DNA from: a virus
Lineage: Duplodnaviria; Heunggongvirae; Uroviricota; Caudoviricetes
Virus record (IMG/VR): IMGVR_UViG_3300007747_000097
DNA: 4,073 bases
Strand: one strand, 5' to 3'
Every line of letters starts with the position of its first letter. Position 1 is the first letter of the stretch. Under the pieces are notes generated by a model. That model saw only the letters and a program-made list of their open reading frames with translations. It was not told where the DNA came from and made no database searches. Of this stretch, positions 457-4,073 are shown piece after piece. The position numbers and the translations under genes were made by a program.

Positions 457-711
457 TCAGTTGTTTTGATTTCTTCCACTGCATTCATCTACTTTCTTGC
501 AGCGAAGGCTTCCGAGTGATATTGCTTTTTCAGAAAGGCTTAACCGCTTTCTCGGGTCTTCCTGAACAGGTTCCTCACTGTCTGTGCCGAAGATCGAATC
601 GATGATGTTGCAGATGGAATCACGCTCGATGGCCAGCTTTCTGCGCCGCTCATGACGGCGAGTTTTGGCATTTCCTGCAAATGTTGATTTTCCGTACACG
701 ATTACCGTCAT
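457..711 (-). CDS. N: Antitermination protein N, P22 (gene 24) type
   Basis: Translation from the ATG at 711 gives MTVIVYGKSTFAGNAKTRRHERRRKLAIER..., containing the arginine-rich motif GNAKTRRHERRRKLAIER that I recognise as the P22 N boxB-binding peptide. A GAGGA Shine-Dalgarno lies about 7 nt upstream on the minus strand. The ORF track's 112-aa form (start at 795) adds 28 residues with no such support. Confidence 0.85.
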   Translation of the reverse strand: MTVIVYGKSTFAGNAKTRRHERRRKLAIERDSICNIIDSIFGTDSEEPVQEDPRKRLSLSEKAISLGSLRCKKVDECSGRNQNN

Positions 712-829
712 GATGTTTTCCTCATGTGAAATGGCTTTGGTGGTGATGCGCCAGATGCTGATCTTCTGGTTGCTGTCGTTACTGCTGCAATTCACATCAC
801 CCCAAACCCATCTCGTTTGGTATCTGTTC

Positions 830-864
830 GCGCTTTGTCAGCGCATCATCGAAGTTAAAGAGCC
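830..864 (-). promoter_or_regulatory. nutL site: boxA-like element plus boxB hairpin (P22-type, GACAA loop)
   Basis: Minus strand reads GGCTCTTTAAC (boxA-like, plus 854-864), a 9-nt spacer, then GCGCTGACAAAGCGC (plus 830-844), a perfect 5-bp stem with a GACAA pentaloop matching the P22 boxB I recall. It lies about 120 nt upstream of the N start in the leftward transcript. Confidence 0.75.
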
Positions 865-899
865 TGCCAATCTGTTCCGTTTGGCTGCCAGCGTCCTGC

Positions 900-1000
900 T
901 GATGGCGATTATAATGAACCAATAGTTCGATATTATCAAGAACTATAAGTACGAATTGTTTGTGGTTCATTAACTTAATGAGATATGTTTTTGATATGTA
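900..1000 (-). promoter_or_regulatory. Putative PL promoter / OL operator region (approximate)
   Basis: AT-rich non-coding DNA upstream of nutL on the minus strand. It contains ATTATAAT (908-915), a minus-strand TATAGT (revcomp of 940-945) and the 9-mer AAGTACGAA (947-955), which is identical to the right half of the OR palindrome at 2947-2955. The -35/-10 pairing is not clean, so boundaries are inferred from lambda architecture. Confidence 0.3.
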
Positions 1001-1118
1001 AAGGAATTTATTTTTGTAAAGATTGAAGATTGGTCAGTAGGAGAGAAAGAATTGTTTGCTGGCGTGTTAGTTCGTGGGTTAGCACATGTGCGGATGTTAA
1101 ATAAGGTAGACGATCGTG

Positions 1119-1147
1119 AGGAAAAGAAAAACCGGCGCTGAGGCCGG
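1119..1147 (-). terminator. Rho-independent terminator ending the cI / 299-aa gene transcript
   Basis: Hairpin CCGGC-GCTGAG-GCCGG (1132-1147) lies 6 nt past the stop of the 299-aa ORF and is followed on the minus strand by TTTTTCTTTTCC (plus-strand A-tract 1119-1131). Confidence 0.6.
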
Positions 1148-1153
1148 GTATAA

Positions 1154-2053
1154 TTATTTGATTATTTCTTTTATAAAGACTTCTTTCGGTTGGTATTTTT
1201 TATCTGATGATTTGAGCTGGTACGTTATTGTTATATCAGCACGTACAGAAAATTTACCTGCAAAATCTGATGGGTTTACGTTGGGGCCAAGAACCATATT
1301 TACTCTTCGATCTATTAATCCAGGGATAACAGCAGCCCAACCTTTCTCTGGATTGTCGAGGTCTAATGCACGGATTTCAACATCAACATCAAAATGATCC
1401 TGAGTATATGACTCTGGTGTGAAGACAACTTCAGTTGGGGCTTTTTTAATGGTTTCAGCGGGAATGGTCACTGTACCACCCCCTGTACCTATGACCATCG
1501 TAGATCCTTCGTCTGCCCTAGCTGGGGCAAGCGTCTTAATGGAACTTTTGGCAAGAGTCTTCTTATTGGTTACCGTGCTTTCTATGATTGCTTGAAGACG
1601 GTCAGGTGAAATATTAGCCTCACCGGCACCAATATTGATGATTGTATTGTTATTTGCTTCAAAGTGGGAGGTGTTGCTTGGAGCCATAGCCTTAGTTGCT
1701 AGAACTAAGCCATATCCAACCAGACCAATAACAACAGCACCAACGAGAGCGTTTCTCATTTTCCCATTTCCGATCTTTGCATGAGCGCCAGCAAGAAACT
1801 TGTCCATTTCTTCTTGGCTACCAAAGAGGAGTTTAATAACAATATCTTCATAAAGGCTTCCTGCTTCTAATCGCGCAACATGCACCGATATATCAAGGAT
1901 ATTAGCCCCTGTCAGTTCCTGCAAAACACCTTCTGATTGTTTTGCGATGGCCTCCCACCCTTGAAGGGAGGTAATCACATCTTTGATGCTTACAGGTTCT
2001 TTAGTTGAATAATATATGTTTTCGGTAAAGGTTAAAGATAATTCTTGGGACAT
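1154..2053 (-). CDS. Hypothetical single-pass membrane protein, 299 aa, unknown function; candidate lysogen-expressed exclusion/abortive-infection protein
   Basis: 900-nt ORF with a GAGGG Shine-Dalgarno 5 nt upstream of its ATG (2051-2053). One strongly hydrophobic segment at about residues 101-123 (NALVGAVVIGLVGYGLVLATKAM) is preceded by GKMR, suggesting N-in topology. Same strand as cI, 130 nt downstream of its stop, then a terminator. I recognise no family motifs (no kinase, nuclease or HTH signatures). Confidence 0.8.
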   Translation of the reverse strand: MSQELSLTFTENIYYSTKEPVSIKDVITSLQGWEAIAKQSEGVLQELTGANILDISVHVARLEAGSLYEDIVIKLLFGSQEEMDKFLAGAHAKIGNGKMRNALVGAVVIGLVGYGLVLATKAMAPSNTSHFEANNNTIINIGAGEANISPDRLQAIIESTVTNKKTLAKSSIKTLAPARADEGSTMVIGTGGGTVTIPAETIKKAPTEVVFTPESYTQDHFDVDVEIRALDLDNPEKGWAAVIPGLIDRRVNMVLGPNVNPSDFAGKFSVRADITITYQLKSSDKKYQPKEVFIKEIIK

Positions 2054-2182
2054 CCGAGCCCTCGCTGTTTCTTTCGATTTGCTGTGTTAAGCTAATATTT
2101 TAATATCCATGTTTCTGTTTGCTTGCAGTGTGTTTCTCACCACCATCCAAACGTACTGGTTACTAGCTATGTGATGATGAAG

Positions 2183-2890
2183 TCATGAACTTTTCAGCCA
2201 TTCCCTGGCCTCGATGTCATCTAGGTGGCGAGATTGCTTCAGAATACCAGCTACATACTCCACCTTTGCTACTTGATGATAAGGCAACGTTATTGGCCTG
2301 TGGTCTTGGTTGATGCTTGTAAATTGGTATTCTCCGTCTCTGTCATAGCCAAGAACCTTGATCATGTTGTGCCCTTCAATGGTTCTGACAAACACCTCAT
2401 CACCTGGGAATACTTTGGTGTTAGGCTCAATGAGTACATATTCTCCTGATTTTATTCTGGGCCACATGCTGTCTCCTTTTACACGAAGACCAAAGGCATC
2501 TGGATCATCGCTATAAATCTTGAGCCACCCATCGCGCTCTTCGGTCATCTCGATGGCACCATCAACACCAAGAATTGCCTCACCAACCACGCGCACTAAC
2601 CCTTTTTTTAATTTGCCAACAATTGAAAAAGTATCTTCATCATTCGCTCCATTTAACGAAGTGCCGTGCTGAAGCCAAACAACATCAACGTTTAGAAATT
2701 TCGCAAGCGCATTCATTTTTTCCTGGCGTGGTAAAGACTCAGCATTAAACCATTTGCTAACGCCTTTGGACGAAAGAGAAAGGGCACGGGCTATGGCCAT
2801 TCCCCTACCATGTTCATCAAGACCAGCTTCTTTACAGGCTTGCGCTAGCCGCTGGGCGAATTCTTTGCGCACTTTTTCATTCTGAACCAT
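2183..2890 (-). CDS. cI: CI prophage repressor, N-terminal HTH domain plus C-terminal LexA-like S24 autopeptidase domain
   Basis: 235-aa ORF. N-terminal region has an HTH-like segment (GMAIARALSLSSKGVSKW). C-terminal region carries the S24 Ser/Lys dyad context (VKGDSMWP ... HNMIKVL). No Shine-Dalgarno precedes the ATG at 2888-2890, consistent with a leaderless PRM transcript as in lambda. Divergent from cro across a 78-bp operator region. Confidence 0.9.
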   Translation of the reverse strand: MVQNEKVRKEFAQRLAQACKEAGLDEHGRGMAIARALSLSSKGVSKWFNAESLPRQEKMNALAKFLNVDVVWLQHGTSLNGANDEDTFSIVGKLKKGLVRVVGEAILGVDGAIEMTEERDGWLKIYSDDPDAFGLRVKGDSMWPRIKSGEYVLIEPNTKVFPGDEVFVRTIEGHNMIKVLGYDRDGEYQFTSINQDHRPITLPYHQVAKVEYVAGILKQSRHLDDIEAREWLKSS

Positions 2891-2968
2891 GAGTACGATA
2901 CTAAAGCACTTGCAAAAACTTTCAGTTCAACCATAATGCGTACTGAAAGTACGAAAAAGGACATTCCT
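2891..2968. promoter_or_regulatory. OR region: divergent PR (rightward) and PRM (leftward) with operator candidates
   Basis: Candidate PR is -35 TTGCAA (2910-2915), 16-nt spacer, -10 CATAAT (2932-2937). A 15-bp palindrome CGTACTGAAAGTACG (2939-2953) overlaps the predicted start site, in an OR1-like position. AGTACG recurs at 2892-2897 next to the cI start, and CTTTCAG/CTGAAAG inverted repeats sit at 2919-2925 and 2943-2949. A minus-strand TAGTAT ends 11 nt before the cI ATG and could serve as the PRM -10. Confidence 0.55.
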
Positions 2969-3196
2969 ATGCAAAATCTTGATGAGCCGATTAAAGGTGT
3001 CGGCATCCCTGAAGTTGCGAAGGCTTGTGGAGTTAGCGAAAGGGCTGTCTATAAGTGGCTCAAAAACGGCTTCCTCCCTAAGACTGAGTTTTTTGGGAAA
3101 ACGAAATACGCATCAAAAATCGAAGAGATTTCTGGTGGCAAATATCAAGCAAGCGAAATGCTTGAAATAAGCAAAAAGAACCTTCTGGCAGCATAA
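2969..3196 (+). CDS. cro: Cro-like HTH repressor (75 aa)
   Basis: ATG at 2969 is preceded by AAGGA (2956-2960) at 8-nt spacing. HTH motif GIPEVAKACGVSERAVYKWLKNG. First rightward gene, divergent from cI. The in-frame ATG at 2936 used by the ORF track lies inside the -10/operator and lacks a Shine-Dalgarno. Confidence 0.8.
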   Translation: MQNLDEPIKGVGIPEVAKACGVSERAVYKWLKNGFLPKTEFFGKTKYASKIEEISGGKYQASEMLEISKKNLLAA

Positions 3197-3203
3197 GTAA
3201 CAC

Positions 3204-3238
3204 CGCTCTTTATCAATCTGCACCGCCGACAACGCGGT
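3204..3238 (+). promoter_or_regulatory. nutR site: boxA plus boxB-like hairpin
   Basis: CGCTCTTTATCAA (3204-3216) matches the boxA consensus. It is followed by ACCGC-CGACAAC-GCGGT (3222-3238), a 5-bp stem whose loop contains GACAA, as in nutL. Located just downstream of the cro stop, as in lambda. Confidence 0.7.
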
Positions 3239-3302
3239 AACTAATTAAGAACTCATCGAAAGATGCGTATTAGTGATTATTTACCTATGGAAATAGTAAG
3301 AA

Positions 3303-3602
3303 ATGGAACAAACAAATTACAGCAAACTATCACAGCGCGACGTTGATCGCGCAGAAACAGATTTACTTATCAACCTGTCAACGCTTACTCAGCGCGGTCT
3401 GGCAAAGATGATTGGCTGTCATGAATCGAAGATAAGCAGAACAGACTGGAGGTTTATAGCTTCGGTCTTGTGTGCTTTTGGCATGGCATCAGACATCAGT
3501 CCGATTAGCAGAGCTTTTAAGTATGCGCTTGATGAAATCACCAATAAAAAACGCCCGGTGTGCAAGACCGAGCGTTCTGAACAAATCCAGATGGAGTTCT
3601 GA
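3303..3602 (+). CDS. cII: CII transcriptional activator homologue (99 aa), mosaic
   Basis: C-terminus ...TNKKRPVCKTERSEQIQMEF closely matches the lambda CII C-terminus (...TNKKRPAATERSEQIQMEF) as I recall it. The N-terminal two-thirds is divergent but retains an HTH-like segment (TQRGLAKMIGCHESKISR). Position between cro/nutR and O. Confidence 0.85.
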   Translation: MEQTNYSKLSQRDVDRAETDLLINLSTLTQRGLAKMIGCHESKISRTDWRFIASVLCAFGMASDISPISRAFKYALDEITNKKRPVCKTERSEQIQMEF

Positions 3603-3624
3603 GGTCATTACTGGATCTATCAAC
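3543..3624 (-). ncRNA. oop: oop-like antisense RNA overlapping the 3' end of cII
   Basis: The minus strand from 3624 reads GTTGATAGATCCAGTAATGACCTCAGAACTCCATCTGGATTTGTTCAGAACGCTCGG..., matching the lambda oop RNA 5' sequence from memory. It ends in a hairpin (wobble-containing stem around CGGTCTTGCACACCGG) followed by a TTTTTTATT run (revcomp of 3543-3551). Exact ends are approximate. Confidence 0.55.
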
Positions 3625-3634
3625 AGGAGTCATT

Positions 3635-4073
3635 ATGACAAATACAGCAAAAATACTCAACTTCGGCAGAGGTAACTTTGCCGGACAGGAGCGTAATGTG
3701 GCAGATCTCGATGATGGTTACGCCAGACTATCAAATATGCTGCTTGAGGCTTATTCGGGCGCAGATCTGACCAAGCGACAGTTTAAAGTGCTGCTTGCCA
3801 TTCTGCGTAAAACCTATGGGTGGAATAAACCAATGGACAGAATCACCGATTCTCAACTTAGCGAGATTACAAAGTTACCTGTCAAACGGTGCAATGAAGC
3901 CAAGTTAGAACTCGTCAGAATGAATATTATCAAGCAGCAAGGCGGCATGTTTGGACCAAACAAAAACATCTCAGAATGGTGCATCCCTCAAAACGAGGGA
4001 AAATCCCCTAAAACGAGGGATAAAACATCCCTCAAATTGGGGGATTGCTATCCCTCAAAACAGGGGGACACAA
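3635..4073 (+). CDS. O: Replication initiator O, N-terminal part (3' end outside window)
   Basis: ATG at 3635 is preceded by AGGAGT. Translation MTNTAKILNFGRGNFAGQERNVADLDDGYARLSNMLLEAYSGADLTKRQFKVLLAILRKTYGWNKPMDRITDSQL... matches lambda O as I recall it. The ori iterons lie inside the coding sequence, as in lambda. Confidence 0.9.
   Translation, partial: MTNTAKILNFGRGNFAGQERNVADLDDGYARLSNMLLEAYSGADLTKRQFKVLLAILRKTYGWNKPMDRITDSQLSEITKLPVKRCNEAKLELVRMNIIKQQGGMFGPNKNISEWCIPQNEGKSPKTRDKTSLKLGDCYPSKQGDT
3983..4068. repeat. Lambda-type replication origin iterons (four O-binding sites)
   Basis: Four roughly 18-bp repeats, each internally dyad-symmetric: ATCCCTCAAAACGAGGGA (3983-4000), ATCCCCTAAAACGAGGGA (4003-4020), ATCCCTCAAATTGGGGGA (4027-4044), ATCCCTCAAAACAGGGGGA (4050-4068). 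Confidence 0.9.

What the first reader, a model, noticed from the sequence alone, without database searches (positions are those of the whole stretch)
3303..3602. Mosaic junction inside cII: divergent N-terminal domain fused to lambda-like C-terminus, oop and O/ori
Seen in sequence: the CII N-terminal two-thirds is unlike lambda CII as I recall it, while from about nt 3540 onward the DNA (CII C-terminus, oop region, O start, iterons) is nearly lambda-identical apart from a small indel (RPVCKTERSEQ versus lambda RPAATERSEQ). N and both nut sites are P22-type. Inference: the immunity region is a three-way mosaic with a recombination joint inside cII. The CII DNA-binding specificity, and hence PRE/PI recognition, probably differs from lambda; I found no lambda-type TTGC-N6-TTGC repeat near the cII start.
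Basis: partly seen in the sequence, partly recalled or inferred. Interest (0 to 1): 0.45.

Follow-up and report, generated by a model that had tools for sequence, protein, structure and literature searches.

The report
Phage 21-type cII meets lambda oop
The sharp switch to lambda-identical DNA near the end of this phage's cII gene is real, but it is the long-known boundary between the phage 21-type immunity region and the lambda-type replication region, so it is ordinary.

Summary
Lambda matches nothing left of nt 3538. From 3538 to 4073 it is 99% identical, differing only in an 8-column block at 3559-3566 (with the 3-nt indel) and at nt 3961.

- **Not a new chimera.** The "divergent N-terminal domain" is the common phage 21/933W/HK97/HK022 allele of CII. 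It is 100% identical to phage 2B8 and about 90% to phage 21. On its own it matches Pfam Phage_CII (E 2e-26).
- **Known tail variant.** The RPVCK tail is the phage 21 variant.
- **Known joint.** GenBank record AJ237660 marks a "border lambda immunity" inside phage 21 cII, about 28 nt right of the joint. The lambda imm21 hybrid DE3 has the same cII-to-O sequence.
- **What the joint is.** It lies 7 nt beyond the 3' end of the convergent oop antisense RNA (3625→3545). It is therefore the left edge of the lambda-type oop-O-ori module. That module overlaps the last 21 cII codons, roughly lambda CII's C-terminal FtsH degradation tag. The indel sits in the loop of the oop terminator.
- **Changed DNA specificity is not supported.** TTGC-N6-TTGT lies at 3312-3325 on the minus strand. 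This is the same offset from the ATG as lambda's TTGC-N6-TTGC and P22's annotated C1 site.

Already known; low interest.

The parts
3303..3602 (+). cII gene (99 aa), a CII-family lysogeny-establishment activator of the phage 21/933W allelic class
   Evidence: ORF. Pfam PF05269 Phage_CII E 7e-34, profile columns 1-91 of 91. PHROG 191 'CII-like transcriptional activator' E 4e-39. Annotated as CII-like activator in 1H12.
3303..3537 (+). cII body (codons 1-78, plus the first base of codon 79): folded DNA-binding part, 21/933W-type allele, not alignable to lambda at the DNA level
   Evidence: 100% identical to 2B8, 96% aa to 933W, 91% aa to phage 21. Alone it matches Pfam Phage_CII at E 2e-26, columns 1-76. 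The lambda body covers columns 1-77. No blastn or BLASTP match to lambda.
3312..3325 (-). Candidate CII box of the establishment promoter pRE: TTGC-tgtaat-TTGT, inside cII codons 4-8 on the opposite strand
   Evidence: Pattern hit. Same offset from the ATG as the lambda TTGC-N6-TTGC and as the annotated P22 C1 binding site 32045-32058, which is nt 10-23 of c1. Function is inferred.
3287..3292 (-). Candidate pRE -10 hexamer TACTAT, in the position of lambda AAGTAT
   Evidence: Alignment anchored on the cII start codon. Inferred by position only.
3538..3602 (+). cII tail (rest of codon 79 through codon 99 and the stop; protein ITNKKRPVCKTERSEQIQMEF). It corresponds roughly to lambda CII's C-terminal FtsH degradation tag and overlaps oop.
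   Evidence: Identical to lambda except the 3559-3566 block. PMC5869508, citing Kobiler 2002, reports that the C-terminal 16 residues of lambda CII are the FtsH tag and that CII1-81 is still active.
3545..3625 (-). oop antisense RNA gene, convergent with cII and overlapping its last 58 nt including the stop codon
   Evidence: Coordinates transferred from the oopRNA feature 644..724 of phage 21 record AJ237660 (offset 2901). Two-hairpin fold of -27.8 kcal/mol, z -3.2, the same topology as lambda. No Rfam family matched.
3548..3578 (-). oop terminator tO: 12-bp stem, 7-nt loop, then a T-run
   Evidence: Terminator scan and folds. Lambda has the same 12-bp stem with a 4-nt loop.
3559..3566 (.). 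Variable block (four substitutions plus the 3-nt indel) that turns lambda RPAA into RPVCK. It lies in the loop and closing pair of the oop terminator. This is the phage 21 allele.
   Evidence: Column-by-column differences. Identical to phage 21 and Stx2a_EH0505. 2B8 carries the lambda allele.
3632..3660 (-). oop promoter pO (TTGAGT, 17-nt spacer, CATAAT), overlapping the start of O
   Evidence: Promoter scan. 100% identical to lambda here.
3635..4073 (+). 5' part of replication gene O with the first ori iterons, lambda-type
   Evidence: 146 aa, 100% identical to lambda, 21 and 2B8. One nucleotide difference from lambda, at 3961.
3197..3287 (+). nutR (boxA and boxB) and spacer, P22-type. The left joint of the cII-body cassette lies at about 3287/3288.
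   Evidence: boxB ACCGCCGACAACGCGGT is identical to P22 nutR. 933W, 2B8, H-19B and HK97 start matching at 3288, HK022 at 3276 and phage 21 at 3297.

Best explanation
This is an ordinary cII gene of a lambdoid prophage (the 1H12 lineage), sitting on the classical boundary between an immunity module and a lambda-type replication module.

The first 78 codons are the widespread phage 21/933W/HK97 allele of the CII DNA-binding core. They also carry, on the opposite strand in codons 4-8, the activator's own target: the TTGC-N6-TTGT box of promoter pRE. The protein core and its site are therefore always inherited together.

The last 21 codons belong physically to the neighbouring unit, the oop antisense RNA gene (terminator, transcript, promoter) followed by O and ori. 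This unit is 99% identical to lambda. [quoted passage not shown] The tail can therefore travel with the replication module without harming CII.

The conserved tail/oop stretch acts as a homologous crossover site. Through it, cII bodies, oop alleles and replication modules are reassorted among lambdoid phages.

Shown here: the identity steps, the family membership, the position of the box, and the oop terminator and promoter.
Inferred: that CII binds the box, that FtsH targets the tail, and that the joints arose by homologous recombination.
For: Joint with lambda:
- Lambda homology starts at 3538 and runs at 99% to 4073. Nothing matches upstream.
- The joint is 7 nt beyond the oop 3' end as annotated in phage 21. 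Terminator and promoter scans agree with that placement.

Not unique to this phage:
- Phage 21 record AJ237660 annotates 'border lambda immunity' inside cII. DE3 (lambda imm21) has the same cII-to-O sequence.
- Hayes et al. 2012 (PMC3349717) describe the imm21 sequence as altered within cII left of oop, with five base changes in the oop/cII overlap. They report that OOP still acts on it.

Same family as lambda CII:
- The body alone scores E 2e-26 against Pfam Phage_CII, on the same columns as the lambda body.
- The CII box is kept in register in 10 of 10 phages. The chance of a match at one fixed register is 3e-5.

Reassortment:
- One body occurs with three tail types. Lambda and 2B8 have different bodies on an identical tail.
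- Window versus phage 21: 24 differences in 243 nt left of 3546, against 2 in 528 nt to the right (p 7e-11).
- Window versus 933W: 0/152, then 26/81 exactly over oop, then 4/358 (p 1e-20).

The indel:
- It lies in the terminator loop. The 12-bp stem is preserved.
Against: - No binding, transcription or proteolysis was measured for this allele. The proximal repeat is TTGT, not TTGC.
- In the 1H12 genome I found no CII box within one mismatch on the correct strand in the xis or Q regions. The lambda-like pI and paQ targets could not serve as an independent check.
- The single-sequence structure model was too poor to compare folds (mean pLDDT 53).
- Part of the long-term conservation of the tail could come from dual coding (protein plus antisense RNA) rather than from exchange.
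Confidence: 0.9

Rival explanations
1. One reading: a recombination event peculiar to this phage fused a foreign DNA-binding domain to the lambda CII C-terminus. This would give an activator with a new DNA specificity and new pRE and pI recognition.
For: - The body has no BLASTP or blastn similarity to lambda.
- No exact TTGC-N6-TTGC lies at the cII start.
- No lambda-like pI or paQ boxes were found in the 1H12 xis or Q regions.
Against: - The same body-tail arrangement occurs in phage 21, DE3, 2B8, 933W, H-19B, HK97, HK022 and Stx2a phages. The query 3197-3537 matched 336 phage records, most of them over the cII body.
- The body is a full Pfam Phage_CII domain.
- TTGC-N6-TTGY sits in the lambda and P22 register in all ten phages. 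Phages 21 and HK97, which carry this body, have the perfect TTGC-N6-TTGC. P22, with an annotated C1 site, also has TTGC-N6-TTGT.
Confidence: 0.04
2. No exchange took place. The identity step reflects selection only. The tail/oop/pO/O-start stretch would be frozen by overlapping functions (protein tag, antisense RNA, terminator, promoter), while the cII body drifted or diversified.
For: - All 21-type cII genes become alignable to lambda at the same point, 3538, even where the tail is only about 70% identical (933W, HK97, HK022). This fits an old, constrained segment.
- The two body classes are true homologues.
Against: - Constraint cannot explain 1 difference in 438 nt of O coding sequence against lambda, synonymous sites included.
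- It cannot explain opposite patterns in different pairs. Against 933W the oop stretch is the most diverged part (68%), between flanks of 100% and 99%.
- It cannot explain different bodies on an identical tail (lambda versus 2B8).
Confidence: 0.05
3. The junction is an assembly or chimeric-contig artefact.
For: The window differs from all close database relatives by a 43-bp deletion at 473/474. Its exact source is therefore not in the collections searched.
Against: Nt 473-4073 of the window, which include the whole cII-oop-O junction, align without a mismatch to phage 1H12, and ten further phage records are listed at 100.0% over the whole window. The joint also exists in the separately sequenced phage 21 and DE3 records.
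Confidence: 0.01

Closest known systems
Phage 21 cII-oop-O region (GenBank AJ237660) and the lambda imm21 hybrid (for example phage DE3, NC_042057)
   Same: - Same cII allele class (90% aa overall).
- Identical RPVCKTERSEQIQMEF tail.
- Identical oop.
- O N-terminus 100% identical in amino acids.
- The same switch to lambda homology inside cII. A lambda immunity border is already annotated inside cII in AJ237660, about 28 nt right of the joint placed here.
   Different: - The body is closer to 2B8 and 933W (100% and 96% aa) than to 21 (91%).
- Codons 78-81 read EITN, as in 2B8. Phage 21 reads GLTK.
- The window therefore looks 2B8-like up to at least 3545 and 21-like from 3559.
- cI and cro carry 933W immunity, not 21 immunity. 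N and the nut sites are P22-type.
Lambda CII (PDB 1XWR, 1ZPQ, 8IGR) with pRE and the oop antisense RNA
   Same: - Same Pfam family over the full length.
- Same gene position between nutR and O.
- CII box at the same offset inside the cII 5' end.
- Last 11 residues identical.
- oop, pO and O are 99-100% identical in DNA.
   Different: - The body cannot be aligned by BLAST.
- The proximal repeat is TTGT, not TTGC.
- The candidate -10 is TACTAT, against AAGTAT in lambda.
- The tail has VCK for AA, and the terminator loop is 7 nt rather than 4.
933W and H-19B cII (Stx phages), and phage 2B8
   Same: - cI and cro of the window are 933W immunity.
- The cII body is 96% (933W) and 100% (2B8) identical in amino acids.
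- All have the TTGC-N6-TTGT box.
   Different: - 933W has a different oop/tail allele (SPVAAGDSKQIDMQF; 68% nt identity over 3542-3622), a different nutR, and two extra iterons.
- 2B8 has the lambda loop allele (RPAA).
P22 C1 with pRE and oop
   Same: - Same architecture.
- The annotated C1 site is TTGC-N6-TTGT at nt 10-23 of the gene.
- An oop-like terminator overlaps the 3' end of c1.
- N and the nut sites of the window are P22-type.
   Different: - P22 C1 has the lambda-class body and an unrelated tail (KEKPQDCGNSFEA).
- The replication genes are different.

Membership tests
CII family of lysogeny-establishment activators (Pfam PF05269) | Full-length match to the family profile above the curated cut-off | tested here: met
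   116.4 bits against a cut-off of 21.3, E 7e-34, profile columns 1-91 of 91. The body alone scores 92.3 bits. Lambda, P22 and phage 21 proteins hit the same model.
CII family of lysogeny-establishment activators (Pfam PF05269) | Gene located downstream of cro and nutR and just upstream of the replication genes, on the rightward early operon | tested here: met
   Order is cro 2969-3196, nutR about 3200-3240, cII 3303-3602, O from 3635.
CII family of lysogeny-establishment activators (Pfam PF05269) | Direct tetranucleotide repeat TTGC-N6-TTGC flanking the -35 region of a leftward promoter that overlaps the cII 5' end | tested here: met
   TTGC-N6-TTGT at 3312-3325 (-), 7 of 8 bases, in the same register as lambda and as the annotated P22 C1 site, which is also TTGT. 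It is perfect in phages 21 and HK97, which carry the same body class. A window-wide count alone is not significant (2 found, 0.64 expected). The fixed position is what counts.
CII family of lysogeny-establishment activators (Pfam PF05269) | Four-helix core with a helix-turn-helix, forming a tetramer, and a disordered C-terminal tail | tested here: inconclusive
   The AlphaFold single-sequence model shows four helices and a low-confidence tail from residue 84. Mean pLDDT is only 53, so no fold search was attempted. phmmer aligns residues 13-99 to PDB 1XWR at E 3e-7.
CII family of lysogeny-establishment activators (Pfam PF05269) | Binds the box, activates pRE, and is degraded by FtsH through its C-terminal tag | not testable with these tools
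   The last 11 residues (TERSEQIQMEF) are identical to lambda. The FtsH-tag role in lambda is taken from PMC5869508, citing Kobiler 2002.
oop antisense RNA of lambdoid phages | Short leftward transcription unit with its promoter at the start of O and an intrinsic terminator inside the 3' end of cII | tested here: met
   pO-like promoter at 3660-3632 (-) and terminator at 3578-3548 (-). 99% identical to lambda. Matches the annotated phage 21 oopRNA. Two-hairpin fold as in lambda.
oop antisense RNA of lambdoid phages | Match to a curated RNA family model | tested here: not met
   No Rfam 15 family matched the window, even at E up to 1. No oop model matched, and whether Rfam holds one was not checked, so this says little about membership.
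Lambdoid mosaic joint (module boundary) | Abrupt step in nucleotide identity between two phages, at a gene or domain boundary, reproducible in independent genomes | tested here: met
   Against lambda, identity goes from none to 99% at 3537/3538. Against phage 21 it goes from 90% to 99.6% at 3545/3546 (p 7e-11). Against 933W it runs 100%, 68%, 99% with the low stretch over oop (p 1e-20). Against Stx2a_EH0505, homology ends at 3598.

The most novel reading that the evidence does not exclude
The roughly 80-nt oop/cII-tail stretch (3542-3622) may behave as a separate, independently exchanging micro-module with at least three alleles: lambda-type, 21-type and 933W/HK97-type.

The 21-type allele present here enlarges the oop terminator loop from 4 to 7 nt. 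It also inserts Val-Cys-Lys at the start of the C-terminal 16 residues, the stretch that forms the FtsH tag in lambda. This allele might measurably change OOP termination or stability, or the half-life of CII. If so, swapping it would tune how often the phage chooses lysogeny, independently of immunity type and replication type.
Probability: 0.12. Interest if true: 0.3.

Novelty: already known. Interest (0 to 1): 0.08.

Why it matters
It matters little beyond correct annotation.

- The window is a textbook case of lambdoid modular mosaicism. A module boundary falls inside a gene, close to the point where a folded core gives way to a dispensable regulatory tail, and where a convergent antisense RNA gene ends.
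- Practically, this cII should be annotated as a normal 21/933W-class CII with a conserved pRE box. It is not a novel chimeric regulator.
- A lambda homology border inside phage 21 cII is already recorded in GenBank AJ237660, and the lambda imm21 junction is discussed in the literature (PMC3349717).

Tried and rejected
- **Rfam, permissive thresholds:** no hit, so oop could not be confirmed with a curated model. I relied on lambda identity, the phage 21 annotation and folding instead.
- **AlphaFold single-sequence model of CII:** mean pLDDT 53, too poor for a fold search, so none was run. I ran no further search on a deeper alignment, because the Pfam result for the body alone was already decisive.
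- **Independent CII boxes at pI and paQ in the 1H12 genome:** none within one mismatch on the right strand in the xis or Q regions. Int/xis and Q appear from their annotation not to be lambda's (not compared). This test of specificity was uninformative.
- **BLASTP of the two CII bodies:** no alignment. Homology rests on the shared profile.
- **Source of the 43-bp deletion variant in complete E. coli genomes:** all 15 listed best hits carry the 43 bp. The other 693 matching records were not inspected.
- **Kobiler 2002 (PMC137528):** not held in the library. Its findings are cited second-hand from PMC5869508.
- **Assembly artefact and selection-only explanations:** considered and rejected (see the rival explanations).

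Full report
**What the window is**

The 4073-nt window is 100% identical to Escherichia phage 1H12 (NC_049947, genus Jouyvirus) and ten sister records. The one exception is a 43-bp deletion in the window at 473/474.

Gene order:

| Feature | Coordinates | Strand |
|---|---|---|
| 3' part of sieB | 16-429 | + |
| N | 457-711 | - |
| unknown 299-aa ORF | 1154-2053 | - |
| cI | 2183-2890 | - |
| cro | 2969-3196 | + |
| cII | 3303-3602 | + |
| O with the first ori iterons | 3635 to the end | + |

**Checking the observation**

Local blastn against lambda gives only two matches. One is 3538-4073 at 99.07%. The other is a 39-nt terminator-like stretch at 1111-1149.

In a multiple alignment, the window differs from lambda across 3538-4073 in just two places. 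One is a contiguous block at 3559-3566: four substitutions plus a 3-nt insertion, giving RPVCK instead of RPAA. The other is nt 3961. Immediately left of 3538 the two sequences cannot be aligned. BLASTP of CII residues 1-78 against the corresponding lambda residues finds nothing.

The O N-terminus is 100% identical to lambda in amino acids over 146 residues.

The statement about N and the nut sites also holds. The nutL and nutR boxB sequences are identical to those of P22, and N is 71% identical to P22 gp24.

**What the "divergent N-terminal domain" is**

It is not foreign to the CII family.

- The whole protein matches Pfam Phage_CII end to end (E 7e-34).
- Residues 1-78 alone still score 92 bits (E 2e-26) over profile columns 1-76. 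The lambda body covers columns 1-77.

It is the common second allelic class of cII. A search with 3197-3537 matched 336 phage records, most of them over the cII body. These include phage 21, DE3 (the lambda imm21 hybrid), 933W, H-19B, HK97, HK022, 2B8 and many Stx phages. Amino-acid identity of the body is 100% to 2B8, 96% to 933W and 91% to phage 21.

The RPVCKTERSEQIQMEF tail is exactly that of phage 21. Stx2a_EH0505 has it with one substitution (E to D).

**The joint is already documented**

GenBank record AJ237660 (phage 21) carries a feature "border lambda immunity" at 665/666, inside cII (402-701). That corresponds to window 3566/3567, about 28 nt right of the joint found here. The record also annotates an oopRNA at 644-724 on the complementary strand.

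With an offset of 2901, that oop maps to window 3625→3545. DE3, which is lambda with the imm21 substitution, has the same cII-to-O sequence.

Hayes et al. 2012 (PMC3349717) sequenced lambda imm21. [quoted passage not shown] They also report that OOP RNA still acts on it.

**Anatomy of the joint**

- A promoter-like site (TTGAGT, 17 nt, CATAAT) lies at 3660-3632 on the minus strand.
- An intrinsic terminator lies at 3578-3548 on the minus strand.
- Together they bracket the oop unit.
- The RNA folds into the same two hairpins as lambda oop: -27.8 against -28.5 kcal/mol, z about -3.

Lambda homology begins 7 nt beyond the oop 3' end. The joint is therefore the left edge of the oop-O-ori module, and that module overlaps the last 21 codons of cII.

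The 3559-3566 block lies in the terminator loop and its closing pair. The 12-bp stem is kept, while the loop grows from 4 to 7 nt.

In lambda, the C-terminal 16 residues are the FtsH degradation tag, and CII1-81 is still active. This comes from PMC5869508, citing Kobiler 2002. The joint falls at lambda residue 78/79. That is within three residues of the boundary between the active core and the dispensable tag.

**Evidence for reassortment through this stretch**

The same body occurs with three tail types:
- lambda-type in 2B8;
- 21-type here, in phage 21 and in Stx2a phages;
- 933W/HK97-type.

Lambda and 2B8 have unrelated bodies on an identical tail.

| Comparison | Segment | Differences |
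|---|---|---|
| Window vs phage 21 | 3303-3545 | 24 in 243 nt |
| Window vs phage 21 | 3546-4073 | 2 in 528 nt |
| Window vs 933W | 3390-3541 | 0 in 152 nt |
| Window vs 933W | 3542-3622 (essentially the oop transcript) | 26 in 81 nt |
| Window vs 933W | 3623-3980 | 4 in 358 nt |

Fisher tests give p 7e-11 for phage 21 and p 1e-20 for 933W. Against Stx2a_EH0505, homology runs from 2155 to 3598 and stops at the cII stop codon.

The tail/oop stretch therefore carries several distinct joints. It behaves as a small exchangeable linker between the immunity and replication modules. Selection alone cannot explain 1 difference in 438 nt of O against lambda, nor the opposite pattern seen with 933W.

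**DNA specificity**

On the minus strand at 3312-3325 there is TTGC-tgtaat-TTGT.

I anchored ten phages on the cII start codon. All ten have TTGC-N6-TTG(C/T) at the identical offset:
- Perfect TTGC-N6-TTGC: lambda, phage 21 and HK97.
- TTGC-N6-TTGT: P22, HK022, 933W, H-19B, 2B8, Stx2a_EH0505 and the window.

In the P22 record, this exact 14-nt stretch (32045-32058, nt 10-23 of c1) is annotated as the C1 protein binding site of pRE. The chance of such a match at one fixed register is about 3e-5.

The motif is kept even though the encoded amino acids differ and the two classes differ by a 4-residue indel nearby. This points to selection on the DNA site. A -10-like TACTAT sits where lambda has AAGTAT. 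I conclude that the specificity is most likely the same as in lambda and P22. This remains an inference, since no binding was measured.

The site lies inside codons 4-8 of cII. The body and its own target therefore form one inseparable cassette, 3288-3537. It is bounded on the left by a joint at about 3287/3288 next to the P22-type nutR.

**Mosaic structure of the whole window**

There are at least six segments rather than three:

| Segment | Affinity |
|---|---|
| sieB, N, nutL | P22-like; N is 97% aa identical to the Stx2a_EH0505 N over 73 residues |
| 299-aa ORF | absent from all references; PHROG 4506, unknown function |
| cI and cro | 933W immunity |
| nutR | P22-type |
| cII body | 21/933W-type |
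| oop, O, ori | lambda-type |

**Verdict**

The feature is a well-known kind of lambdoid module boundary: in effect the right end of the imm21 non-homology, inside cII. It occurs in an already sequenced phage lineage. It is not novel, and interest is low.

The only mildly open point is whether the three tail/oop alleles differ functionally.

Noticed in passing
window 473/474 (N gene, minus strand; N ORF 457-711): The window lacks 43 bp that are present in phage 1H12 and in all 15 listed best E. coli genome hits. The loss shifts the reading frame of N. The conserved C-terminal 23 residues (SVCLPNVAIYAAGYRKSKQLTAR, shared with P22 gp24) are replaced by RNQNN. N may therefore be defective, or the source may be a decaying prophage or an edited sequence.
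   Followed up: partly
window 1154-2053 (-): A 299-aa ORF sits between PL/N and cI, where lambda has rexAB. It matches PHROG 4506 (unknown function) full-length at E 1e-170. It has no PADLOC hit and no Pfam hit above cut-off. It is absent from lambda, P22, 21, 933W, HK97, HK022, 2B8 and Stx2a_EH0505. It is a candidate prophage-expressed cargo or exclusion gene.
   Followed up: partly
window 3542-3622: Against 933W and H-19B, the divergence is confined to an 81-nt patch that coincides with the oop transcript (68% identity against 933W). The flanks on both sides are 99-100% identical. The oop/cII-tail stretch therefore behaves as its own small exchangeable unit.
   Followed up: yes
window 3598/3599; locus L008 (Stx2a_EH0505) about 4402: Homology to the Stx2a_EH0505 group of Stx phages ends at the cII stop codon. 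Those phages keep the oop terminator and most of the overlapped oop sequence. They have unrelated DNA where pO and O lie here. Whether they still make an OOP RNA is unclear.
   Followed up: no
window 1111-1149: A 39-nt stretch just downstream of the 299-aa ORF is 95% identical to the sequence immediately downstream of lambda rexB (lambda 35787-35825). It is also found in H-19B. It may be a shared terminator at the left end of the immunity transcription unit.
   Followed up: no
locus L012 (phage 1H12) 21757-25206: The 1H12 genome carries genes annotated as the manganese ABC transporter SitABCD downstream of the tail genes. This is outside the window.
   Followed up: no
locus L012 (phage 1H12) xis 28534-28770 and Q 41027-41404: No TTGC-N6-TTGC within one mismatch lies on the strand expected for pI or paQ. 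In this phage the only recognisable CII box is the one at pRE.
   Followed up: partly
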